From NCBI GenBank assembly GCA_038087875.1, contig CM075992.1, positions 10,790,001 through 10,854,000 of the forward strand: a DNA stretch of 64,000 nucleotides, read 5' to 3'. The position numbers and the translations under genes were made by a program. This document shows positions 3,248 to 56,509 of this stretch, one piece after another. Under the pieces are notes generated by a model that saw only the letters and a list, made by a program, of their open reading frames with translations, searched no databases and had not been told where the DNA came from. This DNA comes from Malacoraja senta (Eukaryota). Position 1 is the first letter of the stretch, and the number at the start of each line of letters is the position of its first letter.

Positions 3248-3261
3248 AGGGTAAGGGGAGT

Positions 3262-4197: not shown

Positions 4198-4198
4198 A

Positions 4199-8790: not shown

Positions 8791-9420
8791 AAAAATATAA
8801 TATATATATATATATGATGCTGGAGAAAGAGTAATGGGGGGAAATGAATTGGCGAACAGACTGACTACGATTTTGTGTCACTGTGAAAGACACCAGCAAC
8901 ATGCCAGAAATTCAAAGAAAATTGGTGCGTCGTTATTGCGGATGAGAAGGTGCTTGGGAAGTTGACAGGTTCGAAGATCTATAGTTCACCTGTTCCAAAT
9001 GGAGGCTTACTAGTGATCTTTCTGGAATCACTAGATCCAGGAATTGCTGTAGAGAACGGAATTATCAGAAATCTGACTGCACTTTGCAAAGAATGAGTGT
9101 GAAAAGAAAAACAAATCAAAGGCCGCTTCGTCTGACCAGATATTCAGAGAATGTTACAGACTATTGTTAAGAGTATGGTCACAGGGTACTTGTAGTTGTA
9201 TGATAGTAGGCCAAAGTTAAGCGGAAATACTGCGTGATGAAGTTGCTCGAATATTTTGAGAATGTAACATCCAGGATAAGGTCAAACGCTCATAAATGAT
9301 GGAAGCGCATTAGGCAAGTCGGCCCATCTGGTCTACGCCATTCAATCATGGCTGATCGATTGCACCCTCCTAACCGCATTCTTCTGCGTTCTTGCCGTAA
9401 ACCATGGAGAGTAAGTGGAT

Positions 9421-13680: not shown

Positions 13681-15563
13681 CACACAATGTTCGTGTTATG
13701 GTCTGTGGACTAAGTGGGCCGCAGGCGGTGCATCCTGTACCACAGGGGATTGATGACTGACTGCTCACGGCTCCACGGGCTCACAGTGCACTGCTCATAG
13801 TCTCACATGCTAGATTTAAAGCTGACAGTCTGCAGTAACATGAGAGAGAAAAGGTGATCCATAAATGTCTCTCAAAAACGAGCCCTTCCGCCCACCGTGT
13901 CAATTCCAATCACTTTATAATATTCTCACTTTTCTGCACTTGGCTCGTTGCTTTAAACTATTCGGTGTAAGTGGCCGTCCAACCATCAGAACGGCAGAAA
14001 GAACACCAGCAATGTCTTGATGGGAAAAAAAAGATAGTTGCATGACTGCAAGTTTTCTTTTTTCCGACTGGAGGTGTCTGACTGGCAATGGGCCTCAGTC
14101 ATCGGTACTGGGCCCATTGCTGCTAGTGGTTTACATCAATCATTTTAATGGATAGATACAGGGCATGATTAGCAGTTTTGCCAATCACAACATGGTAGGT
14201 GGTATCGTAGACAGTGAAGAAGTCACAAGGACAACTGTGCAACTGGGGCGATGCCGCGACCTTATTGTACGACTGTACAATATGTTGGTGTGGCAGCATT
14301 CAAATTATTGTGTCGAGTTTTGGTGACCTTCCATGGAAACGATTTCATTAATCGGCAAAGAATGCATAGGGCAGTAATCAGAATCTTGCTTGGCCGCGAG
14401 GATCTCAGCTATAAGGAAATGTTGGTAAGCTAGAACTTTGTTTCTTGAAGCGCAGGGAATTGAGGTTTGATCTTAAAAACATTAAATATGACGCAATTTA
14501 AGAAGCTTTTTTTTTTTACCAGGATATATGTATCACGAAAGAGGACAGTGTTGTTAAGCGAGAGGAGGAGCGATTTCGCAGAAAACAAAGAACCAAATGT
14601 TTCACTGAATGGATGGTGTGCATATTGTCGAACTTGCAGACGAATTAACAGGGACAGGTCCTTAAGAACATTAAAAAAACGGATGCGTACATGAATCGTG
14701 TATATTGTTCACTATGATCTTCAATCGTAGCAATGTTCTGCTACATTTATGTATCCATGGATCTACGGGCCAAGGGTAATCTGTTCATCCATATTGACTA
14801 GAATTCTACGTTTACGGCATATGTTTCAGCAAGATCAAATTTGGTTCCATCACAGCTGGGGTGCATTGTTCTGTCCGATTCGCTACACTGCTGGATTACG
14901 AATGGATCAGATGATCTAAAGTAGATTTCCTACATTCTCCCTGCAACTGACTGTGTCAGTTATGAGGAGAGGCAGGAAAGTCTGCACTTATTTGTGTTTA
15001 TAGCCGTGGAAGCCAAGAGGGAATTGGTGAAATCGAGGAACATAAGACGTATAATTACATGTTGAGAGGGGTGTGCGAAAGAGGGGAGTGAGATAAGATC
15101 AATGCAGATAGCAAATCATGGTCGGCGTCTAAATGGTGAGCCACATGGCCTCTAATGTGCATTCCAGCTCCTTGGCTCTTTCTCGTAATTTCTTTGTTTG
15201 AAACACACTGGCAATAGATCTGCGAGGTGTGAAAGAGAGCAGAAACACACTGAAAAATAATGTACAGCTTTGGATTCAAGCCATTTGCAATTACGATGTA
15301 CGTTATGTTATATATTCTGCAGTGTATTATAGTGAAAAGTTCTGGTATTCTTGTCGAACATGTGATTCATTAGGAAAGACTGACGTTAACATTGATACTG
15401 TGGGAAAGGATTCGTGTCTCGAAGTTTGTAACGTGGGCTCATACAACGCCTGGCGTCACTGTGAGGTGCTAATCTCCTAATGGAGCCCTAGCACACTTAT
15501 TTATTGCTGACCAGTTCATACCCGCTGGGTTAATCATGCTGGCAACTGATCGGTCTTCCCGTG

Positions 15564-15665
15564 CCAATGAGGAATAGTCAGACTGACTAGCGACTCCTGG
15601 AACAAATCGCCCACAGAGGCACTCACCCCAACACCATCATCACGCCATGCCCGCTCAGTATATAG
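15564..15665 (+). promoter_or_regulatory. CCAAT and TATA-like promoter of the defensin pseudogene
   Basis: CCAAT at 15564 and TATATAG at 15659, both conserved in the intact copy. Confidence 0.5.
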
Positions 15666-15729
15666 AGAGCAATTATCCGATCAGTTTCATTATCTCCTCT
15701 CAATCTGTGATACTGAAATCGAAGCGAAG

Positions 15730-17617
15730 ATGAGAAACGTGCTCCTGCTCCTGTTTGGAATGTATCTCCTGACACATATCTTCGCAACTGGAGTTGGCGC
15801 ACCTTCAATTATGGAAGCCTAGATAAACCTTTGTGTGTACATAGACTCGAGATCGCTCATCGATAGCATTGATAGAGCGTTGATTTAAAGCAGCCCCCTT
15901 CCCGTTCGGCATTGTTATTTTCAATGTTGATTAGGTGTTAATTTCTGGCAAACCGACTTAACACCGCTTCAACTTGAATAGATGACTGTCAAATCGCGAT
16001 GCTGTGCTGCAGCCGAATTCCCAGCTGTGAGTATGGTTTGCCACGCAAGAGGCGTCCATAAAGTCAGTCCATCGTCTAGATGCAGTTGTACAGGGTCTTG
16101 GTGAGACCACACCTGGAGTATTGCGTACAGTTTTGGTCTCCTAATCTGAGGAAAGACATTCTTGCCATAGAGGGAGTACAGAGAAGGTTCACCAGACTGA
16201 TTCCTGGGATGTCAGGACTTTCATATGAAGAAAGACTGGATAGACTCGGTTTGTACTCGCTAGAATTTAGAAGATTGAGGGGGGTTCTTATAGAAACGTA
16301 CTAAATTATTAAGGGTTTCGACAGGCTAGATGCAGGAAGATTGTTCCCGATGCTGGGGAAGCCCAGAACAAGGGGGTCACAGTTTAAGGATAAGGGGGAA
16401 ATCTTTTAGGACCGAGATGAGGAAAAAAAATTTCACACAGAGAGTGGTGAATCTCTGGAATTCTCTGCCACAGAAGGTAGTTGACGCCAGTTCATTGGAT
16501 ATATTTAAGAGGGAGCTAGATGTGGCCCTTGTGGCTAAAGGGATCAGGGGGTATGGAGAGAAAGCATGTACAGGATACTGAGTTGGATGATCAGCCATGA
16601 TCATATCGAATGGCGGTGCAGGCTCGAAGGGCCTAGTGGCCTACTCCTGCACCTATTTTCTATGTTTCTATGTGTCTATGTTTCTAGAAGACAGAAACAA
16701 CTTACATATTTAATTGTTTCGTCACATCTTTACCTTTTAGTGCTGCACATTAAACGAGCTTTCACGGCTTTACGGGCATGTATATGTGTCATCCCTGTCA
16801 CCCTCCCCTGTATAAAGTGCAAAAAAAAATTAAAGCAGAAGTAATGCTCACAAAGCTGAAATTGATTAGGTTTTGGGGGAAATTAAGGAAGCAGGAAAAC
16901 AGTTTAACGGAATTAACTTGATAAACTGGGCACGAAACGGGACACCTTCTCGAACAGCATTTCCATCAGCAGGTCTTTATGACAGGGATGCCTTGCGTTA
17001 GAACCTTGATTGAGTTCTTTTGAGGAGGCGCGAGGTTGAGTGATGATGAAAGAGCCAATTATGTACGCGTACATAGACCAGCTGCAGAAATAAGCAGAGA
17101 GGTGGCTGATGGAGTTTAAATAGGGCAAATGTTGGGCGTTGCACTTCATGGGGAGGCATCGATGGAGAGAGAATACAGTTAATGACGTGCGTTCGCAGAT
17201 TGCTTCTCATGCCATTCAGCGCAGCACTGATCAGTCTATTCCCCTGTCACTTCCCGGTACGGTCCGCCCTTTCCTGTGCCATTGTTTCTTTACTTGAGCT
17301 GAGGAAAGCAGGCGGATATTTTCCAACCGGACATTCGGAGGGACGGAAGCAGCCCAGGACAGCCCACGCAGCCTCGCCGCAAGCAGCCCAGCCCCAAGAA
17401 ACCTACCCCAAGCAGCAGCAGCAGCAGCAGCAGCCAAGCTCCATGCAGCAGACTTAAGAGCTCTCAATACTTCGGAACCACACTTTCAAACCTTCATACT
17501 CAGACCTTACAAGTGAAGGCCATTGATCATTTAATTTTCCTATTGAAGGATTGTGGAAGAACCAAGGAGAAGTTTGGACCTTGCCACGGCGCGTTTAGTT
17601 GTTGCAAAAAAATGTAA
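15730..17617 (+). pseudogene. Beta-defensin pseudogene, paralogue of 25390-31153
   Basis: Exon 1 reads MRNVLLLLFGMYLLTHIFATGVGAPSIMEA* (15730-15822; in-frame TAG, no GT donor at the homologous site). The exon-2 remnant LKDCGRTKEKFGPCHGAFSCCKKM* (17543-17617) lacks the acceptor and Cys1-2. AATAAA at 17695 and 17708. Confidence 0.88.
16081..16682 (+). mobile_element. 5'-truncated young CR1 copy inside the pseudogene intron
   Basis: Highly similar to the 3' end of 2304-7410; flanked by TCTAGA on both sides; the paralogue has the empty site (GTCTAGAAGACAG near 25730). Confidence 0.93.
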
Positions 17618-18339
17618 GCGAAATGAATTCCTCGTCCGGGAATTCAACTTAATTTGTGTCTGTTACCAACTTATTCGCAAGAATTACAGTTTGAAATAAA
17701 CTGTATGAATAAATAATAGTTGCATGACCTCATCGGCGTTTCTCCTTGTTTCTCTTTTTGCAGGGAACAACGTGAAATAAGGTTATGTTAGGTTAGAACT
17801 GAGCATTGGGAACAACAGTCAATTTTGGATGTAGTGACGCGTGCTTACGCACTGGACGTCAACGACTGTGAACCCCGTGTTGCGCTTTACTATCCGGAAT
17901 CCATCTAGGAAATCTCTGAAATCTCTGAAATAGGTGGTACCGATACAGGTATGATATAGTTAGACCATCATAGAAAAAGCGACAAGAAGAGTTAATTTGT
18001 GGATAGGAACAAAATGTTGGATTAACTCAGTCGAACAGGCAGCATCTCTGCAGACAAGGAATGGGTGGCGTTTCAGATCAAGAACCTTCTTCCTCAGTCT
18101 GACATGATGCCTGTCCCACTGAGTTACTCCCGCATTTTTTGTCTATGTTCGGTTTTAACCTTCCTACATAGTTCATTTGTATACTGTCCGATTCATATGC
18201 ATGCACACCAGATAGCTGGAGCCAGAGGGCGTCAATGTCTTGTTGCAACACTGCTCACATACCAACCCAAACGCAGACCCGAGTCCGCGTTTCAGAATAT
18301 GTTATTATCACATATAATGCGTTACTTTAGAGGCTGCTG

Positions 18340-21060
18340 TCAGAATCCACAGGAACTAATCCTGAATCTATAGAACATTGAAAAATGATCGCCAATGCGT
18401 CCACGATCTCTAGAGCCACCTCTTTTAGTTATCCGGGATGAAGACTAAAGGCCATGGGTATTTGTCAGCTTTCAGTCCCATCAGTTTGCCCAATAATATT
18501 TCTCGCCTAATGCAAATGTCTTTCAGTGCTTCAGTCTCCAAAGTTCCTCTGTCCTCTGGTATATCTGGGAGATTGGTTCTGTCTTCACTAAGGAAGACAC
18601 AAACAAAGTACCTGTTCAACTCTTCTGCCATTTCATTGTTGACCATAATAATTTCAACTGTTTTTGCCTTCAAGGCACCCACATTTGTCTTTACTCATGT
18701 TTCTTTTCTTTACATACCGAAATAATATTCTACTGTGGGGCAAAGTCCCGAAATGAAAGCGAGGAGCCAGGTGTTTCGGGAGGTACCTTTAATATTGTCC
18801 TTCTTGTCATCAGAGAAGTCCGCAAGAGAAAGATGGCACCCAAACCCTTGCCTTTTTCCCTCTAGCTAAGGGCCGCCTTTGGACTTAACCATACCCGTAC
18901 CGAGAGGTTTGATAGTTGGGATGGCCCGACCCTTGGGAGCCGGCACACTACTCTCATTGCCCTTTTTGTTACCCTCTATTGTCCTTTGAAAGCTACCCAA
19001 TCCTCTACCTTCCCGTTACTCTTTGCTATGTAATACCTATTTTCATTTAGTTTATTCCACCCCAACTTCCATTGTTAGCCACGGTTGCCTCTTACTCACT
19101 TCAGAATATTTATTCCTCTTTAGAAATAAGTCATCCTGCAACTTCTGGATTATGCCCAAAATTTCATGCCATTGCTGTTCTACCGTCATTCCTGCTGTGA
19201 TCTCTTGTTAGTTGACTTTGGACATTTCCTCTCTCATGCCTTCCTAGTTCCCTTTGTTCAACTGCAGTACTGAAACTTCTGATTTAACCTTCTAATTGAA
19301 AATTAAACTTATATTGTGGTCACTACCTCCTAGCGGTTCCTTTACCCTGAGTTTCATTTGGGCAATACTGAACATAGAATGGCCTTCTCGCAGGTAGGCC
19401 CCAGTGCAAACTGCTCCACGAATTCATCTCGCAAGCACTCCACAAACTCCATATCTCGTGCGCCAGAACCAACCTGATTTGCCCTGTCAACTTACATGTT
19501 GAAATCTCCAATAACCACAATGGCTTTACCTTTGTTACATGCCAATGTTTACTCCTGCTGCTACTTGCACCCTGTCTCCATGCAACTATATGGGGGCCTG
19601 TAGATAACTTCCACTCGTGTCTTCTTAACTTTACAATTCCTCAATTTTATCCACGGCGACTACATCGTCAGTCACTGTCATCCCTCACAAGGAACTGTAT
19701 TTAATCCTTCAACAACAGAACAATCCACCTCCTCTGCCCATCTGCCTGTCCTTTCTATAGGGCGTATGATCCTGAATATTCAGTTGACAGTCCCGATCCT
19801 CCTGCAGCCATGTCTCGGTAATCCCGACAATGTCATATCTGCTAATCTCTAACTGAGCCTTAAGGTCATCCACTTTACTTCTTATACTTCGCGCATTCAT
19901 GTGTAATACGTTTAATCCATTACTCACCTCACCTTTAACATCGATTGCTATTCCACAAGCCTATACTCTCCAATCCATTCCTGAGCTTCCTGTCCCGTTT
20001 ATTCTGGTGAATGTCTTAACCTTTCCTATACTCTCTTTCCCTTTAACTCTATTCTTTTCTTTCAAATTTGTCACCCCCACTATTCGTTTAATCCCACCAG
20101 TGTAGTAGCAGTGGCAAACCTGCCTGCCAGAATGCTGGTCTCCGCCTGTTAACGTGCAACCCGCCCCTTTTGTACAATTCACCCTTACTCCAAAACAGAT
20201 CCAGTGGTATAACAATCTAAGAATCAGTCATCTCCGGCCGTTGCACTAGCTCCCCTTCCACACATACTGGTACCCTGACTCCCTGTTTCCTGCCCTCACC
20301 AACGCAAGGACTGGAAGCAAACCTGAGATAACCGCCCTGCAGTCCAACCTTACAGTCTTCTTCCGAGCTCTCCAAAGTCACGCTGCAGAATCACTTTCCA
20401 CTTCTTCCCGACGTCATTTGTTTCATCATGCACTACCACTTCCGTCTACAAATCGTAACCCTTGAGTGCCATCAGTCCGTGGTGTCCTGGACCATTGCAT
20501 CAGGGAGGCAACACACCATCCTTGAATCCCGCCTGTTGCCGCAAAAAACATTTCTGTACCACTCACTGTACCTTACTACCACGGCTCTGCCTGACGTTGG
20601 TCTCTTCGGTCTTGCTTCAGCGCCAAGTTTTGTCTCGCAGACCTGTCCGCTGCTCAGTCTGGCGTGTATTCTGCTCCAATAGTTTCCAAGACGGTGAACT
20701 GCTTTCAAGGGGTACATCCCCGTGGTCTCCGTCACTTCAAGCTTTCTTCTATCCTCAACGTCACGCAACCTCTCTCAGTATTTTTGGAGTAACGATCTCG
20801 ATGTAGGTCCTATCCAGGAATTTCTCGTTTGCCCAGATGAAACTGAAGTCATCCAGTTGCCTCTCCAGTGGTAATTCAGGAGCTGAACCCGGACACACTT
20901 GCCACAGTTGTCGCCGGCAGAGGCACCATCAGTGACCCTGACCTCTCCCATCCTGCAAGCATCACACTGAATCAGCTAATCTGTCATTTCTTCACTGCAT
21001 CTCACCCTCGCCAACTTTTGGCGTAGCCTCCTCATCGAAGACTCGCGAGCCAATGACTCG
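18340..21060 (-). mobile_element. Degenerate CR1 (ORF1/ORF2 pieces), shared with duplicate 31940-36350
   Basis: MNARSIRSKVDD, GITETWLQ and MVCCLP motifs on the minus strand. Confidence 0.85.
18734..18947 (-). mobile_element. Solo LTR, 214 bp
   Basis: TGTG...CACA termini, 4-bp CTAC target duplication (18730-18733 and 18948-18951), ATTAAA on the minus strand; absent from the duplicated CR1 near 33755. Confidence 0.7.
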
Positions 21061-21295
21061 CGAGTCACGAAATTGAAAATCATTTCCCCCCCAACCTCCT
21101 CCCCCCCCCCACCCCCACATAAAACAAATCAAGGAACACTTAAACACACTTCAGACATCCTACCATCTGATGTATGTCGTTCTCCAGCCCCGAAATTACC
21201 CCCCTCGTCGTTAACGGTACGAACAACATTCAGTACGCCATTTTAAAGACTCACTGCTCTTACTCTCTGCATTAGCATCTGGATCACGAATACAT

Positions 21296-22210
21296 TTATA
21301 GAGAGAGAACCTTATCTACCCCCCGAATAATACTATCCCCTATCACAACGGCATTTCTTCTAACTCCCCCCTCTTGAATGGCCCCCTGATCCACGGTGCT
21401 GCAGCCAGGTTGCTCATCCCTGCCACAGCCCCTGATCCCGTCCTCACATTGAGTAAGAGCCTCGGTCATGCTCGTCAGGGACAAGGGCTGTGGCTCCTGC
21501 CGCATCTCCTCCTGGTTCCCCCTACCTGCCTCGCTTATGGCCACACCTTCCTTTCCCTGCTCACTAACTACTGAATTAGTTAAACTGGTCGGTGTGACCA
21601 TCCCCTGGCACAAAACATCCAGGTAATACTCCCCCTCCCTGATGCACCGCAGCGTATGAAGTTGGGTCTCCAGCTCATCAATGCGGAGCTCGAGTTCCGC
21701 TAGCTTCAAACACTTACTGCAGCTGTAGGGATCATCTACATCAATGGTGTCGACAATTTCCCACATCTCACAGTATTGGCACATCTCCTGGCCGCCCATC
21801 TTATATAAGTAATTAACTGGTCCTATTAAGAATCCCCTACCCGGATTACTGTATTAAAACACCCCATATTTATATAATCCTACCTCCTATAAATGGGAAA
21901 GTACTTACCCCAGCCGTAAATTACCTACTGGTTTGGCTGTCTAGTGGTAATTCCGTCCGCTCTTTCTGTCTGGTCCACTGTCCCTTGCAGTGCGTGGCCT
22001 ACCTCTTAGCCCCTGTTAGCCTCTCGGGCCGCGGCTCCGTCCTTCCTCCCTCGGCGACAACCCTGGGCCGCACCTGTGGCACCTGTGGCACCGCGGTCGT
22101 GACGTCCCTTCCGTTCCAACTGCCACTGATTACTCGCTGCACTCTGATTACCTCGCTACACTCTGATTCTGTGTCTGTGATTATCTGTGTCTATCTGTGT
22201 CTATCTGTGA
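21296..22210 (-). mobile_element. 5' portion of another CR1 family (5'UTR and ORF1 N-terminus)
   Basis: MGGQEMCQYCEMWE...CSKC...coiled coil...VIGDSIIRG, homologous to ORF1 at 3262. Confidence 0.85.
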
Positions 22211-22379
22211 TTCCACACCGCTGCTTGGAAGTATGCCGCGCCTGCGCACTGAGCGGGTTCTTCACGTAATCCCTCATCGTAACTCCTCATAAAATACAGA
22301 TCAAACTTCAAACTGGTAAGTTCTCGTTTAATCTTACTATTTTAGCCCCTTTCCGGACGGTCAAATGTCATCGTTCTGT

Positions 22380-23857
22380 CAACGAAATCGCGGATGCATT
22401 GGTGATAATTTGTCAATGTTCTATAGATGCAGGATCAGTTCCTGTGGATTGGAGGGTAGCTAATGTTATCCCACTTTTTAAGAAAGGCGGGAGAGAAAAC
22501 ATGGAATTATAGACCAGTTAGCTGACATCGGTGGTGGGGGGAAGATGCTGGAGTCAATTATAAAATATGAAACAGCCGCACATTTGGATAGCAGTAACAG
22601 GATCGATCCGAGTCAGCATGGATTTACGAAGGGGAAATCATGCTTGACTGATCTCTGGAATTTTTTGAAGATGTAACTAGGAAAATGGACAAGGGAGAGC
22701 CAGTGGATGTAGTGTACCCGGACTTTCAGAAAGCATTTGATAAGGTCCCACACAGGAGATTAGTGGGCAAAATGAGGGCACATGGTATTGGGGTGGAGTG
22801 CTGACATGGATAGAAAATTGGTTGGCAGACAGGAAACAGAGAGTGGGGATTAACGGGTCCCTTTCAGAAGGACAGGCAGTGACTAGTGGGATACCGCAAG
22901 GCTCGGTACTTGGACCGCATCTATTTACAATATACATCAATGATTTGGATGAAGGATTGAAAGTAACATATCCACATTTTCAGATGACACAAAGCTGGGT
23001 GGCAGTGTGAAATGTGAAGAGGATGCTATGAGAATGCAGGGTGACTTGGACAGGTTGGGGGAGTGGGTGGTTTGCTTGGCAGATGACGTTTAATGTGGAG
23101 AAATGTGAGATTATCCACTTTCGTTGCAAAAACAGGAATGCAGATTACTATATAAATGGTGTCAAGTTGGGAAAAGAGGAAGTACAGCGGATCTGGGGTC
23201 TTTATTCATCAGTCTCTGAAAGTAAGCATGCAGGTACAGCAGGCAGTGAAGAAAGCGAATGGCATGTTGGCCTTTATAACAAGAGGAGTCGAGTATAGGA
23301 GCAAAGATGTCCTTTTGCGGTTGTACAGAGCCCCAGTGAGACCACACCTGGAGTTATTTTGTGCAGTTTTGGTCCCCTAATTTGAGGAAGGACATTCTTG
23401 CTATTGATGGAGTGCAGCGTAGGTTTACAAGGTTAATACCCGGGATGGCGGGACTGTCATATGCTGAGAGAACGAAGCAGCTGGGCTTGTACACTCTGGT
23501 TTAGAAGGATGAGAGGGTCATGTTCCCGATGTTGGGGGAGTCCAGAACCAGGGGCCACTGTTTAAGAATAAGGGTAAACCATATAGAACGGAGACGAGGA
23601 AACACTTTTTCTCACAGAGAGTTGTGAGTGTGTGGAATTCTCTGCCTCAGAGGGCGATGGAGACAGGTTCTCGACATACTTGCAAGAGAGAGTTGGATAG
23701 GGCTCTTAAAGATAGCGAAGTCATGGGATATGGGGGAAAGGCAGAAACGGGGTACTGATTGGGGATGATCAGCCATGATCACATTAAACGGCGGTGCTGG
23801 CTCGAAGGGTCGAATGGCCTACTCCTGCACCTATTGTCTATTGTCTATTGTCTATTG
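22380..23857 (+). mobile_element. 5'-truncated CR1 RT region with (CTATTGT)n tail
   Basis: [13 protein letters not shown] and [10 protein letters not shown] motifs, frameshifted; tail at about 23831-23857. Confidence 0.9.
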
Positions 23858-25201
23858 AAATGCCGACAGTCGTAACATGAATGAATGGAAGTCGTTTTTG
23901 AAATCCCATAGTTTGTAAGGGGTTGCGCGGTCAATGCAGGGAAATTGGTTGATAGGTAGAGATAGATCAGCGGAGTAGACTTGATGGGCCGTACGCACGC
24001 AGTGCATCATGTGCCACAGCGGACTGATGACTGACTGCTCACGGATCCATGGACTCAGAGCGCACTGCTTATTTTCTCACTTGCTAAATGTAAAGCACTC
24101 GGTCTGCAGTGACATGAGAGAGAAAAGGTGATCAAGAAATGTCCCTCAAAATCGAGCCCTTCTGCCCATTGTGTCAATGATAATCAATTTACAATATTTT
24201 CAATTTTCTGCACTTGACTCGTTGCTTTAAACACTTCGGTGTCAGCGGCCGTCTAACGGAGATACCACGCGCCGCTGGCTTCAATCTTTTTAATGGAGGG
24301 GGTTGAGAGAACACTGGAAATTACCTGTACCCCGGTGTTATTAGAACAAAATATTTCCCAATTGCAGTGGGACTGTTTGTAAAGCGCATGGTGTTGAGTG
24401 AGGGCGAAGGTGGTTAGACTGTTGCACACGGCGCATGGAAAGCTTGCATTCATTAGATAGGTAAATTCATCATATTTGGTTCAATCACAGCTGGGGTGCT
24501 GTGTTCGGTCCGGCTCGCCACACTGCTGGATTACGAATGGAGCAGATGATCTAAAGTAGATTTGCCAATTTCTCCTCTGCAACTGATCATGTCAGATATG
24601 GGAAGAGGCCGGATGGGCTGCACTTATTTTTGTTTTTGCCGTAGAAGTCAAGAGGGAATTGGTAGAAGTGAGGAACATAAGACGTATAATTACACCTTGA
24701 GAGGTGTGTGCGAAAGAGGGGTTTGAGATAAGATCAATGCAGGTGGCAAATCATTGTCGGCTTGTAAATGGTGAGCCATATGGCTGGCCACAAGTGTGCA
24801 CTCCAGCTTCATGGCTCTTTCTGACAGTTTCTTTGTTTGAAACACACTGGCAATACATCTGGAAGGTACGAAAAAAGCGGAAAAACACCGAAAAGGAATG
24901 CACAGATTTGGATTCAAGCCATTTGTAATTACGATGTACGTTATGTTCTATTCTCTGCATGGTATTATAGGGAAAAGTTCTGATATTCTTGTAGAACGTC
25001 TAATTTATTAGGAAAGACTATCGTTAACATTGATACTGTGGGGATGGAGTCGTGTCTCGAACTTTGACACGCGGGCTCTTACAACGTCTGCCGTCGGTGT
25101 GAGGGGCTAATCTCGGAGTGGAGCCCAAGCACACGTATTTATTGCTGACCAGTTCGTGGCCGCTAGGTAAATCATGCTGGCAACTGATCGGTCTTCCCGT
25201 G

Positions 25202-25327
25202 CCAATGAGGAATAGTCAGACTGACTGGCGACTCCTGGAACAAATCGACTACAACGCCACGTCACCCCAACACCATTATCACGCCATGCCCGCCAACACA
25301 AGACAGTCTCCATCAGTGTATATATAG
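25202..25327 (+). promoter_or_regulatory. Putative promoter of the beta-defensin gene (CCAAT box and TATA box)
   Basis: CCAAT at 25202; TATATATAG at 25319-25327, about 65-70 nt before the ATG; conserved in the paralogue. Confidence 0.6.
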
Positions 25328-25389
25328 AGCAAATCTCCGATCAGATTCAATATCTCCTCGCATTCAGTGATACTGAAAGGGAAGCGAAG

Positions 25390-25468
25390 ATGAGAAACGT
25401 GCTCCTGCTCCTGTTTGGAATATTGCTCTTGGCACATCCCTTCGTAGAAGGAATGGACGAAGTCAGGG
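25390..25468 (+). CDS. Beta-defensin exon 1: signal peptide and short pro-piece, MRNVLLLLFGILLLAHPFVEGMDEVR
   Basis: ATG with A at -3 (AAGATG), basic-hydrophobic-small signal pattern ending V-E-G, phase-1 donor G|GTGAGG at 25468/25469. Confidence 0.88.
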
Positions 25469-26849
25469 GTGAGGAAACATGTGTGTGTACACATACTCGG
25501 GATCGCTCATCGATAGTATTGGGAGAGTGTTGATTTAAAGTAGCCCCCTTCTCGTTAGGCATTGTTATTTTAAACGTTGGTTAGGTGTTAAGTCGGTTTG
25601 TCAGTTCTGCCAATCCGAATTAACACCGCTCCAACTTGAATAGAAGGATGTCAAATCGCGATGCTGTGATGCATTCCCAGCTGTGAGTATGGTTTGCCTC
25701 GCACGAACCGTCCATAAAGCCAGTTCATAGTCTAGAAGACAGAAATAACTTACTAATTTAATTGTTCTGTCGCATCTTTACTTCATTGCTTTGTAGTGCA
25801 GCACATGAAACGAGCTTTAACGGCTTTACGGGCATGTATATCTGTTATACCTGTCACCCTGTGTAAATAGGGCAGATGTTAGGCGTTGCACTTCTTGAGT
25901 GGGCATCGATGGAGATAAAAAACAGTTAATGGCATGTACCTTAACAACGTCGATGTGCAGGGGAATCTTGGAGTCCCAGTTCATGGCTCACTGACGGCGG
26001 CTGCAAAATAACTTAGGATGGTAAAGAAGGCAGATGGTATGCTTGCCTCAATGCTCGGGGCATTCAGTATAACAGTCAAGACATCGTGATGAAGCTCGTA
26101 GGAGGTTGCTGATGCCGCATTTGGATTACTACGTATAGTTGAGGTCGTCCCAGTTCCGGAAATACGCGGGGGCTTGGCAGAGAGTTCTTCGGAGGTTTAG
26201 GAGAAGGCTGCCTGGATTAGTTCCTGTCAGCTACAGGGAGTCGTTGAACAGAGTTTAATACAGATGTACGGGTCAGGTTTATACTGAGAGAGCGGTGGCG
26301 ATTTGGACCAATGGCAGCAGTGGTAGTGGAGGCAGATACCAGATTGGAGTTTAATCGTCTTAAGGATGGTTAAAGAAGAGAGTGAGCACAGTAGATGGGC
26401 GTTACTCTGACTGCAGGTCTGTGACAAATGGTGTTCAGCAACACTGTTTTTGCGCCGTTCGGATGAGGGTCAACTCTAAAGTGTTCTCTTTTCCGTGTTC
26501 TACGTTTTAGTGATGATGTAATATCAGTATGAGGGTGTCCGTAGCCATAGCAGAGATAAATAAAGCCCGATTATGTAACTGGCTTCATACAGGCGCTCGG
26601 GATAGTCGGTTCGTGCTGAGCACCAGGAACCAATCATGAATTCTTACAGAAGTAACAGGCGCGAATTGATCAACGCAAGATTTTCTACACTTCAAGTCAG
26701 TGCGGATGGACAACGAGGACAAAATGTTTATTTTCGGGCCCCGGTCCCCCGTTCCTGTTGAGAAACACATTCTGAATATGGTTTCGAGGGCTGCTGCACA
26801 AACCTTTCCAGACCCACACTGCCCACCGTCGCAGTTGATCAATGATTAA

Positions 26850-27784
26850 GTCAAAGTCAAAGTCAAAGTATCCTTTATTTTCATTCAGACCTTTCCGTCT
26901 GAACGAAATTTTGTTGCCTAGCAGTCATACATATAATAAAATAACAAAACACACAATAAACACAAATTTAACATCCACAACAGTGAGTTCACCAGATACC
27001 TCCTCACTGTGATGGAAGATAAAAGTCTTAAAGTCTTTGTCTCTTCCCTCCTTGCTCTCCCTCTCCCCTGAGGCGAATCAGGCCTCCGATGTTGTGACCC
27101 CACCGGGTGATGATAAGTAAGTCCCGCGGCTCAACCTTGCTCCGCGAACGGGCCGGTTCAAACTCCGCGGCCCGGGGTGGTCGAAGCTGCCACCCTCCAT
27201 TCAGCGGACGAAGCTGTTGTTGCGGGAGCTCCGGTTAAAAAACAGGTCACCAACTTATGACCTGCGAGCTCCCGACGATGTCGTCCACTGGTTCGCGGCC
27301 AAACCTGCGAGGTCGGGTCGCCGCCGAACGCCGGAACGCTCCGTGTCGGACTGCCGCCGCCTCAGCCCCGAGTCGGACCGCCGCCGGAACGCCGCCTCGG
27401 ATGCGAGTCGGACCGCCGCCGCCTCAGCCCCGAATCGGACCGCCGCCGCAGGAAGGCCGCCTCAGCCCCGAAGTCGGCACGCCTCGCGCTGGTAAGTCCT
27501 GGCTGGTTCTGCCTCCGGAGCCTCGAGGTCGGTCCCAGTTGGAGGTCGCCAGCTCCGCCATTAGGCCTCAGCGCAGACGGGGACGGAGAAGGGGGATACG
27601 ACACGAAGAGTCGCACCCCCCCCCCCTCCGCCGAAGGAAGAGACTAAAACAAGTTTCTCCACACATACACAAACTAAGAACTCAAATTAACTAACTAAAC
27701 CAGGACAAGAAAACAACAACAAAAAAGAAAGAACAGACGGACTGCAGGCGAGCCGCAGCTGCTAAGGCAGCGCCGCCACTTCCG
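26850..27784 (-). mobile_element. Non-autonomous retroposon in the defensin intron
   Basis: Minus-strand AATAAA plus (TTTGAC)n tail, GC-rich 5' end, GATTAA duplicated at 26844 and 27785; the paralogous intron piece near 59960 has the empty site. Confidence 0.75.
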
Positions 27785-27994
27785 GATTAATTAGAAATAA
27801 CGCTGGTTTGAGGGCATTTTGTCTTGAAACGGGGCAAAATTGTTTCGACGTGGAAAGTGAACAATTTACTGAATTTCGAACATTCTCTGCAATGGTATGG
27901 CGTCATTGACAGAAAGGAAGTGATGAAGTGGCCAAATGTGCAAATGACAAAAGAACCACAATATATTATAAACGTGTGTATGGAATTGTTCACA

Positions 27995-30243
<2,249 letters not shown>

Positions 30244-31040
30244 TCTTCATTTTCGACGAACGCCTGGGAGCATAAAACGGACTTAATGGAGATAGTGTAT
30301 CCGATTCGAAGTTCTGTGACCTGTCCCAACGTATTTCTTCCTGCTTTGGGGCTGTTCAAAATTAATCTAACCATGAACATATGAGCTCTCAGAACATTGG
30401 AACCATACATTCAAACCTTCATACTCAGACCTGAAAAGTGAAGACCATTGTACATTCACTTTTCCTAATGACTACGTGGCCTGTGTAGTGAAGCCTATGC
30501 CTGATGTTGCGGCTGCCCTTTGGAACACCATGCGACGCTACTCAAAGATCACTTCTCCCCACATTCCACTCTGACCACTGACATCCTGCTGACGATGTGC
30601 AACACTCTGTTGCCGCGTGCAAAAGATGAGCTCTCCCATATAATTCTAAATTATCAGCAGAGTTTTACACGCATTGCAAATCGATGACGCCTCAGTACTT
30701 GACCTCATCCTGATCTATGACTACATGTTGCCAACCAGATTTGACAGGTATGTCTCCAAATGATCCTCTCTCTAGGTTCGATCATTCCCTGTTAAAGTCT
30801 ATCTGTCAACCAGCAACACCACATTGCTTTCTGCAGCCTTCCGTTCCTTCGGGCTTTACGAAATGCAGACATTCTACAATTAATGGAATGTAAGGTGAGG
30901 TAAAGGCTGTTCGTTATCGGGGTTCCTGTCGATTGAAAGTGCACAAAATACGTTAATGAAAGCTTGGCTCGCTATTCCCTGTAAATGTAAATATAATTGT
31001 CCACTGGCCGATTATTTAGCTTTTATTTTGTGTCACACAG

Positions 31041-31153
31041 CACGGTGCAGAGGTATGAACGGAAATTGTTTGAAGAATTGCGGAGGAGGCTTGGTGCAGG
31101 TTGGAACTTGCTTAGGCGCGTTTAAATGCTGCGGTTCACCTTCAGTGAAATGA
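31041..31153 (+). CDS. Beta-defensin exon 2: mature six-cysteine domain, (A)RCRGMNGNCLKNCGGGLVQVGTCLGAFKCCGSPSVK*
   Basis: Acceptor TTTTATTTTGTGTCACACAG| at 31040; joins exon 1 in frame (G+CA = Ala; 192 nt total, 63 aa); C-x6-C-x3-C-x9-C-x5-CC with two GxC motifs. Confidence 0.92.
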
Positions 31154-31221
31154 ATTACTTGTCCGGGAGTTCAACTTCATTCGGGTCATTTATCACCTTA
31201 TCTCGCAAGACCTAGAGTTTG

Positions 31222-31240
31222 ATTAAACTGTATGAATAAA
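31222..31240 (+). terminator. Polyadenylation signals of the defensin gene
   Basis: ATTAAA at 31222 and AATAAA at 31235, about 70-85 nt after the stop; both are AATAAA in the paralogue. Confidence 0.7.
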
Positions 31241-31939
31241 TAATAGTTGCATGACCACATCGTCATTTCTCATTGCTTCTGTTTTGCAATGAACTGCGTG
31301 AAATAAAGGTTTGTTAGGAGAGAACTGAGCATTGGGAACAAAAGTCAATTTTTGGACGTTGGACATCAATGACTGTGAACCACGGATTGTGCTCCACTCT
31401 CCGGAATCCAACTAGGAAATCTCTAAAATGGGTGGCACCGATACAGATATGATAAGGATTGACCATCATAGAAAAAGCGACAAGAATAGTTCATTTGTGG
31501 ATAGGCACGAAATACTGGATTAACTCAACGGAACAGGCAGCATCTCTGCAGAAAATGATTTGGTGATGTTTCGGTTCAAGAACCTTCTTCCTCAGTCTGA
31601 AATGATGTCTGTCCCACTAACTCCAGCATTTTGTGTCTATCTTCGGTTTAAACCAGCATATGCAGTACCTTCCTACATAGTTCATTTGTATACTGGCCGG
31701 TTCACACGCATACACACCACATAGCTGGAGCCAAAGGGCGTCAATGTCTTGTTGGAACACTTCTTACACACCACCCAAACGCAGTCCTGGGTCCGCGTTT
31801 CAGAATATGTTATTATCACAGATAATGCGTTCCTTTTGAAGCTGCGGTTAGAATATTCATCCTCAGGTTTGGTCAATAACCGAAGCTAACAGATCCGCCC
31901 AACTGCGTCTGCATTAGTAAACGCAGAAACATTGAAACT

Positions 31940-34900
31940 AAGAAACCTTGAAAAAAGGTGCAGGTGGAGGCCATTTGGACCTTCGAGCCATTCACTGTGA
32001 TCATGGCTGATCATCCACAATCAGTAACCCGTGCCTGCATTCTCCCCATATCCCTTGATTCCGCTAGCCCATGGAGCTCCATCTAACTATATTTTAAATT
32101 AATCCAGTGAATTGACCTCGTGCCTTCTGTGGCAGCGAATTCCACAAATGCACGACTCCCTGGATGAAAAACATTTTTTCTCATCTCAGTTGGGCTCCCC
32201 TTTATTCTTGGACTGTGCCCCACAGGTTCTGGACTTCTCAAAGATTGGGTACATTTTCCTACATCTAGCTTGTCCAGGCCTTTATAATTGTATTCGTTTC
32301 TGTAAGATCCCCTCTCATCTTTCTAAATTCCAATGAATACAAGCCCAGTCTTTCCAATCTTTCAGAATATGACAGTCCAGCTATCCTGGGGATTAACCTC
32401 GTGATCCAACGCTGAACTGCCTGAATAGCAAGAATGTCCTTCCTCAAAGTGGCAGACCACAACTGTACTCAATACTCCAGATGTAGTCTCACCGGGGCTC
32501 AGTACAACTGCAGAAGGACGTCTTTACTCCGATACTCATCCTCTCTTGATATGAAGGCCTGTATACCATTAGCTTTCATCACTGCTTGTTTTACCTGCAT
32601 GCATATTTTCAGTGCCTGGTGTACAAGGGCGCGCATATCTCGTTGCACTTCCCTTTTATCACATCGGACACCATTGATGTAATAAACTGCCTCCTTGTTC
32701 TTGCCGCTAAAGTGGATATCCTCACATTTATCTATATTATACTGCATCTACCATGCACCTGCCCACGCACTCGACATGTCAAGTCACCCTGCAACATCCC
32801 AGCATCCACTTCACAGTTCACACTGCCACCAGCTTTGTTTTACCCGCAAATTTACCCGCGTTACTTTTAATTCCATCATCTAAATCCTTAATATATGTTG
32901 TAAATAGTTGCGGCTCCAACACGAGCCTTGCGGCCGTCCAGTCGCCACTGCCTGTAATTCACCCAGTGAGCCGTTTACTCCTACTCTCTGTTTCGTGACT
33001 GCCAACCAATTCTATATCCATGTCAATCCCCCACCCCCAATACCATATGCTCAAATGTTGCCATTAATCTCGTGTGTGAGACAAAGTCAAAGTCTTTCTG
33101 AAACTCCAGACACACTACATACGCTGGCTCCCCTTCGTCCATTTTACTAGTCACATCCTCAAAAAATTCCAGAAGATTAGCCAAGCAGGATTTCCTTTCA
33201 TAAATCCATGCTGGCTTGAACCAATACTCTTACTGCTATCCAGAATGCGCCGTTATTACTAATTTAATAATAGACTCTGGCATCTTCCCCACCACGATGT
33301 CAGGCAAACTGGTCTATAATTCCCCGCTTTCTCTCTCGCTCCTTTGTTGCAAAGTGGGATAACATTAGTTACAACCACAGGAACTAATCCTGAATCTACA
33401 GAACATTGGAAAATGATCACGTATGCGGCCACGATTTCTAGAGCCACCTCTTTGAGTACCCTGGGATGCAGACCATCAGGCCTTGGGGAATTATCACCCT
33501 TCAGTCGCATCAGTCTGCACAATACAATTTCTCGCCTAATTCAAATATCTTTCAGTTCTTCTGTCTCGCAAGATCCTCTGTCCTCTGGTTTATCTGGGAA
33601 ATTGGTTTTGTCTTCATTTAGGAAGACATAAACAAAATACCTGTTCAACATTACATTTATTTGTTCACCATAATAATTTCTCTGGTTTACGCCTTCAAGG
33701 GACCCACATTTGTCTTTACTAATGTTTTATTTCGTAACATACCGAAATAATTTTTTACTATCCTTCTTTATACTCTTGGCCAGCTTACTCTCGTACTTCA
33801 TCTTTTCACCCGTATTGCCCTTTTTGTTACCTTCTGTTGTCCTTTGAATGTTACCCAATTCTCTCTACTCTTTCCTATGTAATACCTCTTTTCTTTTAGT
33901 TTGATTCCATCCCAAACTCCCATTGTTAACCCGGTTGCCCCTTAGTCACCTTAGAATATTTCTTCCTCGTTAGAATGAAATCATCGTGCATCTTCTGGAT
34001 TATGCCAACAAATTCCAATGCTGTTCCACCGTCATTCCTGCTGGGATCTTTTTTCCGTCGACTTTGGACAACTCCTCTCTCATGCCTCCCTAGTCCCATC
34101 TGTTCAACTGCCACACTGATACTTCTGAATTAACCTTCAAATTGCAAATTAAAACTTATATTATGGTCACTACCTCCAAGCGGTTCCTTTACCTTGAGTT
34201 CCTTATTAATTCGAGTTAATGGACAATACTAAAACCATGAATTGCCTTCTCGCTGGTAGGCTCCAGAGCAAACTGCTCCACGAATCCATCTCGGAGGCAC
34301 ACGAGAAACTCCCTATCCTGTGCTCCAGATCCAACCTGATTTGCCCAGTCTAGTTACATATTTAACTCTCCCATAAACACAATGGTTTTACTTTGTTACC
34401 AGCCAATTTTTACTCCTGCTGCAACTTACACGCTATATCCAGTCTACTGTATGGGGACATGTAGATAACTCCAATTAGTGTCTTCTTAAATTTACAATAC
34501 CTCAATTCTATCCACAGCGACTACATCGTCGTACCTGTCATACCTCACAAGGAACTGAATTTCATCCTTCACCAACAAAGCTATCCATCTCCTCTGCCCA
34601 TCTGCCTGTCCTTTTTATAGGCGTATAATCCTGAATAATCAGTTGACAGTCCCGATCCTTCTGCAGCCATGTCTCGGTAATCCCGACAATATCACATCTG
34701 CCAATCTCTAACTGAGCATTAAACTGAACCACTTTACTTCTGAGACTTCGCGCATTCATGTATAATACGTTTAATCAATAACGCACCTCACTTTTCACCT
34801 CTATTGCTATTTCACTTGCCTATACTCTCCTATCCATTCGTGAGCTTTCTGTCCCGTTAATTCTGGTGTATTTCTTAACATTTCCTATACTCTCTTTCCC

Positions 34901-36350
34901 TTTAACTCCATCCTTGTCTTTCCAATTTCTCCCCCACTATTTAGTTTAAATCCACTAGGGTACCAGTGGCAATCCTGCCTGCCAGAATGCTGCCCCCGCC
35001 TGTTAACGTGCAACCCGCCCCTTTTGTACAATTCACCATTACTCCAAAACAGATCCAGTGATATAAGAATCTAAGAATCATTGATCTCCTGCGTTGCACC
35101 TGCTTCCCATCCACACATTTTGATCCCTTAACTCTCTGTTCCTGCCCTCACCAGCACGAGAAACTAGAAGCAAACCCGAGATAACCACCTTGCAGATCCT
35201 GCATTTCAGACTTCTTCTGAACTCTCCAAAGTCACGCTGCAGAATCTCTTTCCATTTCTTCCCGAAGGCTTGGGAGTATAGATACGTTTTTTTTAGTCTT
35301 GACTTAAAGGAGTCGATGGAGGGGGCAGATCTGATGGGAAGAGGGATGCTGTTCCACAGTCTAGGAGCTGCAACCGCAAAGGCACGGCCGCCCCTGAGCT
35401 TATGCCTAGACCGTGGGATATTCAGCAACCCCAAGTCGGCCGATCTGAGGGACCTGGAGGTGGAGTGGTGGGTGAGAAGACTTTTAATGTAGGTGGGGGC
35501 AAGCCCATTGAGGGCTTTGTAGACAGAGAGGAGGATCTTGAAATGTATACGGAACCGCACAGGGAGCCAGTGGAGAGAGGCCAGGATCGGGGTGAGGTGG
35601 TCCCTTGTTCGCGTCCCCGTCAGGAGTCTCGCTGCGGCGTTTTGGACCAGTTGCAGGCGGGACAGAGAAGATTGGCTGATGCCAGTGTAAAGGGAGTTGC
35701 GGTAATCTAGGCAGGTGGAGATAAATGTGTGGATGATCCTTTCGAGGTCAGGTGGAGATAAATGTGTGGGTGATCCTTTCGAGGTCATCAAAGTGGAGGA
35801 ATTGTCAGAAACCCATTGCAATACCCCTCACTGTACCTTACTACCACGGCTCTGTCTGACGTCAGTCTCTTCGGTCTTGCTTCAGCGCCGAGTTTTGACA
35901 CACAGACCTGTCCGCCGCTCAGACTGGCAGTTTCTTCTGTCCCGACTGCTTCCAAGAGGGTGAACTGCTTTCAAGGGGTATATCCCCGGCGTCTCCGGGC
36001 CTTCAAGCTTCCTTCTCTTCCTCAACGTCACGCAACGATCTCGCTGGAGGTCATGGGCAGGAATTCCTCGTTTACCCGGATGAAACTGAGATCATCCAGT
36101 AGCCTCTCCAGTACCCAGCACGGTCATTCAGGAGCTGAACCTGGACACACTTGCCACATTTGTCGCCGGCAGAGGCACCATCAGTGACCCTGACCTCCCA
36201 CATCCTGCAATCAACAAACTGAATCAGCTTATCTGTCATTTCTTCACTGCATCTCACCCTCTCCAACTTTTGGCGTAGGCTCCTTACCGAAGACTCGCGA
36301 CCCAAAGATTCGCGAGCCGAAGACTTGCTAGGCACACACTCGCGAGTCAA
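31940..36350 (-). mobile_element. Degenerate near-full-length CR1
   Basis: Minus-strand RT (MQYNIDKCE, PDGLHPRVLKE), endonuclease and ORF1 (CRMWEV...KCGKC) remnants. Confidence 0.88.
35264..35815 (-). mobile_element. L2-clade LINE 3' ORF2 fragment nested in the CR1
   Basis: LDYRNSLY, LQLVQNAAARLL, LHWLPV and APRLWNSIP motifs typical of L2. Confidence 0.9.
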
Positions 36351-36809
36351 TGAATCGAAACCCTAGAAAATGAAATAAATTTTCCCCCAACCACCCCCCC
36401 CTCAACCCCCCACATAAAACAATTCAGGGAACACTAAAACATACTTCAGACACCCTGCGACCCTGTCGTTCTCCAGCCCCGTAAATACCCCGTTCATTGT
36501 TAACAGTACGAACAGCATACAGTACGTGCCATTTTAAAAACTCACATCTCCTGCTCTCTGCAATAGCATTTGGATCACGAATGTATTTACAGAGCGAAGC
36601 ATCTTGCGCGAATCCTTGTATCATTCCACTGGCCACTGGATCCAAATCACTAATGCAACACTTCCCATGTAAAATAAATATTTCCCCTGGAAACTGCATC
36701 TTGAAGCTTTGGCTCCGGAGGATACGGAGAAAAAGAATGAGGAGTGAGGAGCTGACCTGTCAGGCCCAGAGCAGCAGCAAGCAGGAAGTATTAAGAAGGT
36801 TTGTTCGAT

Positions 36810-56395: not shown

Positions 56396-56509
56396 CAATA
56401 GACAATACACAATAGACAATAGACAATAGGTGCAGGAGTAGGCCATACGGCCGTACTTTCCAGCAGCGTCATTCAATGTGATCATCCACAATTAGTGCCC
56501 CTTTCCTGT

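What the first reader, a model, noticed from the sequence alone, without database searches (positions are those of the whole stretch)
15730..17617. Dead tandem paralogue of the defensin, with visible inactivating lesions
The first 10 codons and the start context are identical to the intact gene. This copy has six extra pro-region codons (VGAPSI), an in-frame TAG at 15820 and no donor. Relative to the intact copy it lacks about 600 bp (equivalent to about 30468-31069), which fuses intron sequence TTTTCCTA directly to TTGAAG and removes the acceptor and Cys1-2. It also carries a young CR1. This is birth-and-death evolution visible within one window.
Basis: seen in the sequence. Interest (0 to 1): 0.7.

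Follow-up and report, generated by a model that had tools for sequence, protein, structure and literature searches.

The report
Dead beta-defensin duplicate in skate-like genome
A broken copy of an antimicrobial-peptide gene sits beside its apparently intact twin in a skate-like fish genome; the breaks are real and such gene death is ordinary for defensins, but the two copies diverged unusually fast in the peptide, and defensins of this kind seem little described in sharks and rays.

Summary
Confirmed to the base. Copy A (15730-17617) is a tandem, intron-containing duplicate of a two-exon beta-defensin-like gene B (25390-31153). A lacks B 30468-31069 (602 bp: acceptor plus Cys1-2), has no canonical donor, and reads into TAG 15820. 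Contigs from 2 of 3 public runs (one study) cross the deletion junction unchanged, so an assembly error is very unlikely.

Corrections:
- The TAG lies where B's donor lies, so stop and lost donor are probably one lesion.
- 'Six extra codons' depends on the alignment; the net difference is +10 nt.
- The CR1 postdates the duplication but is 7-8% from the youngest copies and is intronic.

Additions:
- The exon-2 remnant is the most divergent part of 5 kb of aligned sequence (27-35% against 13.6%), mostly nonsynonymous, with four cysteines kept. This points to diversifying selection, probably before A died; no outgroup was available.
- A has a second blunt deletion of 1.5 kb.
- Repeats point to a skate-like host, and I found no paper on chondrichthyan beta-defensins.

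No RNA was available, so B's expression and a cryptically spliced four-cysteine product of A are untested. Six cysteines cannot be recovered by splicing.

The parts
13720..21306 (+). Duplicated unit A (tandem copy of 23994-36597); 13.6% non-coding divergence from B
   Evidence: Self-BLAST blocks; 665 of 4,894 aligned non-coding columns differ
15659..15664 (+). TATA-like box of copy A, retained (B: 25319-25326); upstream 57-nt identical run 15532-15588
   Evidence: promoter function not tested
15730..15822 (+). Exon-1 remnant of A: 21-codon signal-peptide-like stretch, 9 further codons, then TAG
15814..15828 (+). Site of the lost phase-1 donor; TAG 15820-15822 lies here (7 nt between two shared anchors in A, 12 in B)
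   Evidence: spanned unchanged by X2 record 10
16081..16682 (+). 5'-truncated CR1 LINE (3' end), inserted after the duplication, with 6-bp target-site duplications 16075-16080 and 16683-16688
   Evidence: empty site in B at 25731-25736
17542..17543 (+). Blunt junction of the 602-bp deletion (B 30468-31069: 573 bp intron, acceptor, 29 bp of exon 2 with Cys1 and Cys2)
   Evidence: bridged by X1 record 3 and X2 record 12
17543..17617 (+). Exon-2 remnant of A: 24 codons, no indel, Cys3-6 kept (17552, 17582, 17600, 17603), stop TAA 17615-17617 three codons before the TGA shared with B (17624-17626); most divergent stretch of the duplication
17695..17713 (+). Two AATAAA polyadenylation-signal-like hexamers, retained (B: 31222 and 31235)
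18346..18347 (+). Junction of a second blunt deletion in A (B 31855-33374, 1,520 bp), removing the 3' part of an antisense CR1 shared by both copies
25390..25468 (+). Copy B coding exon 1 (79 nt, phase-1 donor at 25469)
   Evidence: gene model, no RNA
31041..31153 (+). Copy B coding exon 2: six-cysteine motif C-x6-C-x3-C-x9-C-x5-CC; predicted precursor of 63 aa
   Evidence: (PF00711 E 3.5e-4)
23994..36597 (+). Duplicated unit B

Best explanation
A two-coding-exon beta-defensin gene with about 7.5 kb of surrounding DNA was duplicated in tandem long ago in a skate-like batoid (shown: collinear unit with intron, promoter and 3' flank; host clade inferred from repeats). The two copies then diverged under diversifying selection in the secreted peptide and in the second half of exon 1, at about twice the rate of the flanks with the cysteine frame kept (excess shown; that A was itself alive and under selection is inferred, since no outgroup was available). 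A was later inactivated by two lesions in unknown order: a small indel at the exon-1/intron boundary that removed the phase-1 donor, so that the frame runs into a TAG, and a blunt 602-bp deletion that removed the acceptor and Cys1-2 (lesions shown; end-joining repair inferred from the absence of microhomology). The intronic CR1 and a second 1.5-kb downstream deletion are bystander events. A is now an unprocessed pseudogene; if still transcribed from its retained promoter, the default product is a 30-residue signal-peptide stub (inferred).
For: Collinear tandem unit. Lesions mapped to the base and present in short-read contigs of 2 of 3 runs. B exon 2 matches PF00711 (E 3.5e-4), mouse beta-defensin 7 as best PDB sequence hit (E 0.0028) and beta-defensin clusters in the Atlas (best 0.86, a lead only). 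Exon-2 remnant: 17 of 63 nt differ up to Cys6 (binomial P 0.004 against 13.6%), 26 of 75 up to A's stop (P 3e-6); 14.25 nonsynonymous differences on 49.4 sites; only 2 of 26 differences are CpG-type transitions. It is the most divergent 63-column window of 5,038 columns, and 0 of 2,000 permutations reach it. Neutral simulation: 10 or more amino-acid changes with all 4 Cys kept in 0.09% of 20,000 runs. Codons 11-21 differ at 11 of 33 nt (P 0.003). Part of the deleted segment matches an old repeat at 66%, consistent with it being ancestral intron. The second deletion has firm polarity. Same pattern in avian and primate defensin clusters (PMC3161384, PMC11874394, PMC4018336; passages).
Against: No RNA evidence for either copy. 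The excess divergence cannot be assigned to a branch: keeping four Cys by chance on a neutral A branch has probability about 0.5, or 0.16 if half of the exon's divergence fell on A unconstrained. The amino-acid count alone is only P 0.043. Synonymous divergence in the exon is also somewhat high (2.75 on 13.6 sites; dN 0.36, dS 0.24, non-coding 0.15), so a within-exon dN/dS test is not significant and a local mutation hot spot is not excluded. The two runs are from one study and may be the assembly's source; contigs drop rare alleles. B's Pfam score (20.9 bits) is just under the curated cut-off (21).
Confidence: 0.8

Rival explanations
1. A is not dead but truncated: a weak phase-0 donor right after the signal-peptide glycine (15793) is spliced to one of the new in-frame acceptors at or upstream of the junction, giving a secreted cationic peptide with only Cys3-6, in the way theta-defensins arose from a truncated alpha-defensin.
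For: Four donor-acceptor pairs keep the 21-codon signal stretch and the Cys frame (43-73 aa, 4 Cys; acceptors 17458, 17503, 17518, 17548). The frame is open across the junction (17480-17614). Two acceptors have pyrimidine tracts of 0.67 and 0.73 against 0.73 for B's. The remnant has no indel and net charge +4; TATA-like box and AATAAA sites are retained. Precedents: theta-defensins arose by a nonsense mutation (PMC4018336, passages); five-cysteine Defr1 is active (PMC2883079, abstract).
Against: The donor scores -6.1 against +3.3 for B's. With beta-defensin pairing 1-5, 2-4, 3-6 (PMC7203481, passage) only one native disulfide could form. The remnant has no Pfam match. Retained promoter and 3' signals are no more conserved than chance (permutation P 0.09-0.66).
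Confidence: 0.05
2. The lesions are real but recent: this is a null allele still segregating, and an intact A allele exists in the species (copy-number or presence/absence polymorphism).
For: Apart from the lesions, the remaining coding sequence has no frameshift, as expected of a recent death. Null alleles are discussed for avian beta-defensins (PMC11874394, passage). Only one study's samples were seen.
Against: Two separate disabling lesions on one haplotype imply some time since death. Both informative runs carry the deletion, and X1 differs from the window at 14988 and 17186 where X2 does not, a weak hint of a second haplotype; phase with the junction is not shown.
Confidence: 0.09
3. A was dead or silent almost from the duplication; it decayed neutrally and the excess amino-acid divergence arose on B's branch alone.
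For: Pairwise data cannot polarise the changes; Cys retention on a neutral branch has probability about 0.5. A lost DNA twice by large blunt deletions, so such events are not gene-specific here.
Against: No indel in 21 + 24 codons outside the boundary lesion. All excess on one branch would require B's exon to have changed at about three times its flank rate (inference from 27% total against 13.6%). A's signal stretch stays hydrophobic with Gly21 kept despite 11 of 33 nt differing.
Confidence: 0.15
4. The deletion or stop is an assembly error.
Against: Independently built short-read contigs bridge the junction with 101 letters on the left and 149-184 on the right, 0 differences, in 2 of 3 runs, and one spans the TAG.
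Confidence: 0.01

Closest known systems
Vertebrate beta-defensin family (Pfam PF00711 Defensin_beta; e.g. mouse beta-defensin 7, PDB 1e4t; gallinacin-2)
   Same: B: six-cysteine spacing within the avian search motif (PMC3161384, passage), cationic, short precursor, phase-1 intron in front of the cysteine module (PMC7203481, PMC11874394, passages).
   Different: No close sequence relative found. Host is a skate-like cartilaginous fish, whereas one review gives the range as teleost fish to mammals (PMC7203481). Two coding exons, as in the human genes, not the three exons given for fish (PMC3978493, passage).
Defensin pseudogenes of birth-and-death clusters (galliform AvBD pseudogenes; primate DEFAP/DEFTP)
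   Same: Tandem duplicate, conserved signal region, fast-evolving mature peptide, loss by stop or indel (PMC11874394: 7 pseudogenes among 354 genes; PMC4018336; PMC3161384).
   Different: Lesions here are splice-site loss and a 602-bp deletion removing two cysteines rather than a point nonsense change or frameshift; only two copies are visible in this 64-kb window.
Theta-defensins (DEFT) and five-cysteine Defr1
   Same: Examples of cysteine-reduced defensin paralogues or alleles that stay functional; the model for the cryptic-splice rival.
   Different: Those keep normal splicing; A has lost both canonical splice sites and has no expression evidence.
CR1-clade LINEs of chondrichthyans (GDSL-esterase ORF1, endonuclease/RT ORF2)
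   Same: The intronic insert is the 3' 600 bp of such an element (92.5% to 6813-7411), with a short tandem tail and target-site duplication.
   Different: Nothing unusual; 'CR1' as a clade label is recalled from the ORF architecture, no repeat library was searched.

Membership tests
Beta-defensin (copy B) | Six-cysteine motif C-x4-6-C-x3-5-C-x9-10-C-x5-6-CC | tested here: met
   C-x6-C-x3-C-x9-C-x5-CC at 31046-31132, the only full match of my motif scan in six frames of the window; motif from PMC3161384
Beta-defensin (copy B) | Match to PF00711 at the curated cut-off | tested here: inconclusive
   E 3.5e-4, 20.9 bits against cut-off 21, profile positions 4-35 of 36; best PDB sequence hit beta-defensin 7, E 0.0028
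Beta-defensin (copy B) | Phase-1 intron just before the cysteine module | tested here: met
   Best-scoring donor of the region (25469) and acceptor 31040 give phase 1 and an open 63-aa frame; predicted, not read from RNA
Beta-defensin (copy B) | N-terminal signal peptide | tested here: inconclusive
   Basic N-terminus and hydrophobic stretch, mean hydropathy 1.0; no signal-peptide predictor was run
Beta-defensin (copy B) | Cationic mature peptide | tested here: met
   Net K+R-D-E = +5 for exon 2
Beta-defensin (copy B) | Three-stranded beta fold | tested here: inconclusive
   Single-sequence model with three strands, pLDDT 73.7, pTM 0.38; fold searches uninformative
Beta-defensin (copy B) | Disulfides 1-5, 2-4, 3-6; expression; antimicrobial activity | not testable with these tools
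   Needs peptide chemistry and RNA
Functional beta-defensin (copy A) | Six cysteines | tested here: not met
   Cys1-2 codons deleted; spliced forms that keep the signal stretch have 4 Cys
Functional beta-defensin (copy A) | Canonical phase-1 donor and acceptor | tested here: not met
   No phase-1 GT before the TAG; acceptor deleted
Unprocessed (duplicated) pseudogene (copy A) | Retains intron and flanks of a neighbouring parent gene | tested here: met
   Collinear 13720-21306 against 23994-36597
Unprocessed (duplicated) pseudogene (copy A) | Disabling lesions present in the DNA, not only in the assembly | tested here: met
   Junction bridged in 2 of 3 runs, TAG spanned by a listed piece in 1 of 3
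Unprocessed (duplicated) pseudogene (copy A) | No functional product; fixed in the species | not testable with these tools
   Needs RNA and unrelated individuals

The most novel reading that the evidence does not exclude
Copy A is a living, cysteine-reduced offshoot of a so-far undescribed chondrichthyan beta-defensin lineage: after adaptive divergence it lost the N-terminal half of the cysteine module and is now spliced through a cryptic phase-0 donor (15793) and an acceptor created or exposed by the deletion (17503 or 17548) into a secreted four-cysteine cationic peptide, a new peptide class born from an apparent pseudogene as theta-defensins were.
Probability: 0.05. Interest if true: 0.75.

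Novelty: new member of a known kind. Interest (0 to 1): 0.36.

Why it matters
The pseudogene itself is a textbook case of defensin birth and death and changes no model. Its value is as an internal control: the dead copy's flanks give a local neutral yardstick (13.6%), against which the peptide exon is about twice as divergent, so selection on this defensin pair can be seen from one genome window. The wider point concerns the parent gene. [quoted passage not shown] If the host is a skate and B is expressed, the family is present and diversifying in cartilaginous fishes, with two coding exons, which would place vertebrate beta-defensins at or before the root of jawed vertebrates and suggest that the three-exon fish form is derived (inference). 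That is an expected extension rather than a surprise, and subscription literature or genome annotations that I could not see may already hold it.

Tried and rejected
No whole genome is held for this window, so other paralogues elsewhere in the genome and synteny could not be checked. No RNA holder was listed among the 3 runs; X3 gave no cover on the unique parts; neither says anything about expression. CR1 junctions in the runs: X1 record 2 and X2 record 11 begin at 16659, only 24 letters inside the element, under the tool's 31-letter bridging rule; the 5' junction is not bridged by a listed piece (tables were cut). Contig depths were not used as copy number. Homologue searches with B exon 2: no candidate in the word-indexed search (proteins of 24-77 aa), 0 hits at E 0.001 among 1.84 billion representatives; short cysteine-rich queries are weak, so this does not show absence. 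Fold searches with the 36-aa model: 0 Foldseek matches, 1 of 48,161 chains at Z 2.2, unrelated. Rfam: 0 matches in 13000-37000. A third defensin copy in the window: none by motif scan, tblastn or word-7 blastn; the weak tblastn hit at 63033-63004 lies in an old repeat pair and lacks the other cysteines. Gene conversion or promoter conservation as the cause of the identical runs: rejected as unsupported (low-divergence windows P 0.09-0.66). A local source for the 18-nt stretch 15793-15810: no 10-12-mer of it recurs in the window. Mechanistic link between the 602-bp CR1 insert and the 602-bp deletion: none seen, they lie 860 bp apart; treated as coincidence. Earlier scan notes: nothing relevant. 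PMC4451809, a vertebrate-wide beta-defensin survey cited by PMC7203481, is not held, so its taxon coverage is unknown to me.

Full report
**The observation.** A self-BLAST of the window shows a collinear tandem duplication, 13720-21306 (unit A) against 23994-36597 (unit B), in blocks of 77-86% identity. Unit B holds a two-coding-exon gene model: ATG at 25390, a phase-1 donor at 25469, an acceptor at 31040|31041 and a stop ending at 31153, for a 63-residue precursor. Its second exon has the spacing C-x6-C-x3-C-x9-C-x5-CC, the only full match of my motif scan in the six frames of the window. It matches Pfam Defensin_beta at E 3.5e-4, 20.9 bits against a cut-off of 21. Mouse beta-defensin 7 is the best of 9 PDB sequence hits at E up to 10 (E 0.0028), and the three Atlas rows shown are beta-defensin clusters (best score 0.86, a lead only). 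A single-sequence model has three strands at pLDDT 73.7 and pTM 0.38, but fold searches with it were uninformative. B is therefore a beta-defensin-like gene by motif, profile and intron phase; that it is expressed is not shown.

**The lesions in A.** Codons 1-10 are identical to B's (0 of 30 nt differ), and TAG at 15820-15822 is in frame. Of the 4 GT sites before the TAG none is in phase 1, and they score -1.2 to -6.1 on a simple donor matrix (frequencies recalled) against +3.3 for B's donor. B 30468-31069, 602 bp made of 573 bp of intron and 29 bp of exon 2, is missing from A at a blunt junction, 17542|17543, which removes the acceptor and the Cys1 and Cys2 codons. A CR1 3' fragment lies at 16081-16682 between 6-bp target-site duplications, and B has the empty site.

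First, the TAG lies at the place of B's donor: between two shared anchors A has 7 nt and B has 12. The stop is reached only because the donor is gone, so the two are most simply one lesion. Second, the six extra codons appear as a clean 18-nt gap in 1 of the 5 gap settings tried; the others give gaps of 15, 10 or several smaller ones. What does not depend on alignment is that A is 10 nt longer from the ATG to a shared intron anchor, and the polarity is unknown. Third, the CR1 postdates the duplication but differs at 42 of 579 and 32 of 386 sites from two other copies that differ from each other at 3 of 386. It is intronic and not shown to be disabling.

**Are the lesions real?** One search for public runs returned 3 contig sets from one study, none on record as RNA. 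Laid on 14800-26000 at 93% likeness, X1 record 3 (17442-17726, depth 21.6) and X2 record 12 (17442-17691, depth 2.5) cross the deletion junction with no other letter and no gap, and X2 record 10 (15559-16016) spans the TAG unchanged. X3's listed pieces lie only on repeats. An assembly error is thus very unlikely. These runs may be the source of the assembly, contigs drop rare alleles, and the tables were cut, so fixation in the species is open. X1 differs from the window at 14988 and 17186 where X2 does not, a weak hint of a second haplotype; its phase with the junction is not shown.

In 12 aligned non-coding blocks taken from the BLAST hits (unaligned stretches left out), 665 of 4,894 columns differ (13.6%). 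The exon-2 remnant differs at 17 of 63 nt up to Cys6 (binomial P 0.004) and 26 of 75 up to A's stop (P 3e-6), with 14.25 nonsynonymous differences on 49.4 sites and 2.75 synonymous on 13.6. It is the most divergent 63-column window in a 5,038-column alignment; 0 of 2,000 permutations reach it, 2 of 2,000 for 75 columns and 5 of 2,000 for 120. Only 2 of the 26 differences are CpG-type transitions. Codons 11-21 of exon 1 differ at 11 of 33 nt (P 0.003). In 20,000 neutral simulations, 10 or more amino-acid changes in 21 codons occurred in 4.3%, and together with all four cysteines kept in 0.09%.

**Limits of that result.** Corrected rates are dN 0.36, dS 0.24 and non-coding 0.15, so the test rests on the flanks as yardstick, and a within-exon dN/dS on so few sites proves nothing. 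Two sequences cannot say on which branch the excess arose, and four cysteines survive a neutral A branch about half of the time. The reading that A lived and diversified before dying is the likelier one, because the remnant has no indel and its signal stretch stayed hydrophobic, but it is an inference.

**A second deletion.** A also lacks B 31855-33374 (1,520 bp) at 18346|18347. Its polarity is firm, because it removes the 3' part of an antisense CR1 whose remaining part both copies share. Large blunt deletions on the A lineage are therefore not specific to the gene. Part of the 602-bp segment matches an old repeat at 66%, consistent with it being ancestral intron rather than a B-specific insertion.

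**Could A still make something?** Enumerating all GT donors before the TAG against all AG acceptors in 17400-17551 gave 30 in-frame pairs. Of these, 26 cut the signal stretch and 4 keep it (donor 15793; products of 43-73 aa with four cysteines). The four-cysteine form needs a donor that scores -6.1 and could form only one of the three native disulfides (pairing from PMC7203481, passage). Precedents for cysteine-reduced defensins exist: theta-defensins arose by a nonsense mutation (PMC4018336, passages) and five-cysteine Defr1 is active (PMC2883079, abstract). I put this at about 5%.

**Host and literature.** A near-full-length LINE at about 3166-7411 has a GDSL-esterase ORF1 and an open 1,039-codon endonuclease/RT frame. 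The top 3 of its 35 ORF1 relatives are Leucoraja erinacea proteins (80-84% identity), followed among named rows by other rays and sharks, so the host is most likely a skate-like batoid; this is inference from a repeat. Birth-and-death with positively selected mature peptides and occasional pseudogenes is established for defensins: PMC3161384, PMC11874394 and PMC4018336 (passages) and PMC4255768 (search listing only). For cartilaginous fishes I found no paper describing a beta-defensin in six searches: 25 of 863 listed; 25 of 1,522; 25 of 30; 4 of 4; 30 of 635; 5 of 5; most listed papers were judged from the listing alone. PMC6795676 (section 14 read whole) names other shark and skate antimicrobials but no defensin; PMC10707392 mentions the word only in its references; PMC7203481 gives the range as teleost fish to mammals (passage); PMC3978493 gives three exons for fish genes (passage). 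The library lacks most subscription journals and one relevant survey, and I read no supplements. No close protein relative was found.

**Verdict.** The modest extra interest comes from the selection signal that the dead copy makes visible and from the host lineage. Interest 0.36.

Noticed in passing
window 25390-31153: The apparently intact partner is a two-coding-exon beta-defensin-like gene in a skate-like genome with no close relative in the protein collections searched and no chondrichthyan precedent in the papers searched; it may deserve more attention than the pseudogene.
   Followed up: partly
window 18346|18347 (B 31855-33374): Second blunt deletion of 1,520 bp in unit A, cutting a shared antisense CR1.
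   Followed up: yes
window 16081-16682 and 17542|17543: The CR1 insert between its target-site duplications and the exon-2 deletion are both exactly 602 bp long; no link seen, treated as coincidence.
   Followed up: partly
window 3166-7411: Near-full-length CR1-type LINE with GDSL-esterase ORF1 and an open 1,039-codon endonuclease/RT frame; its 3' end is 99% identical to the copy at 52403-52816, so this family was recently active.
   Followed up: partly
window 17740-17763: Copy A has a strong acceptor-like site (pyrimidine share 0.93) downstream of the poly(A) signals that B lacks.
   Followed up: no
window 9420-11696, 43809-46084 (inverted) and 63622-64000: Three copies, about 96% identical, of another repeat of 2.3 kb or more with RT-like frames.
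   Followed up: no
window 27994-29022 and 2304-2921: A 1-kb TATC microsatellite inside B's intron, and a near-perfect 91-bp tandem array.
   Followed up: no
window 25049: Both informative runs read A where the window has G: a possible consensus error or other haplotype upstream of copy B.
   Followed up: no
window 55203-56397 and 61783-62999: An older pair of repeats (69% identical) with decayed coding similarity; not identified.
   Followed up: partly
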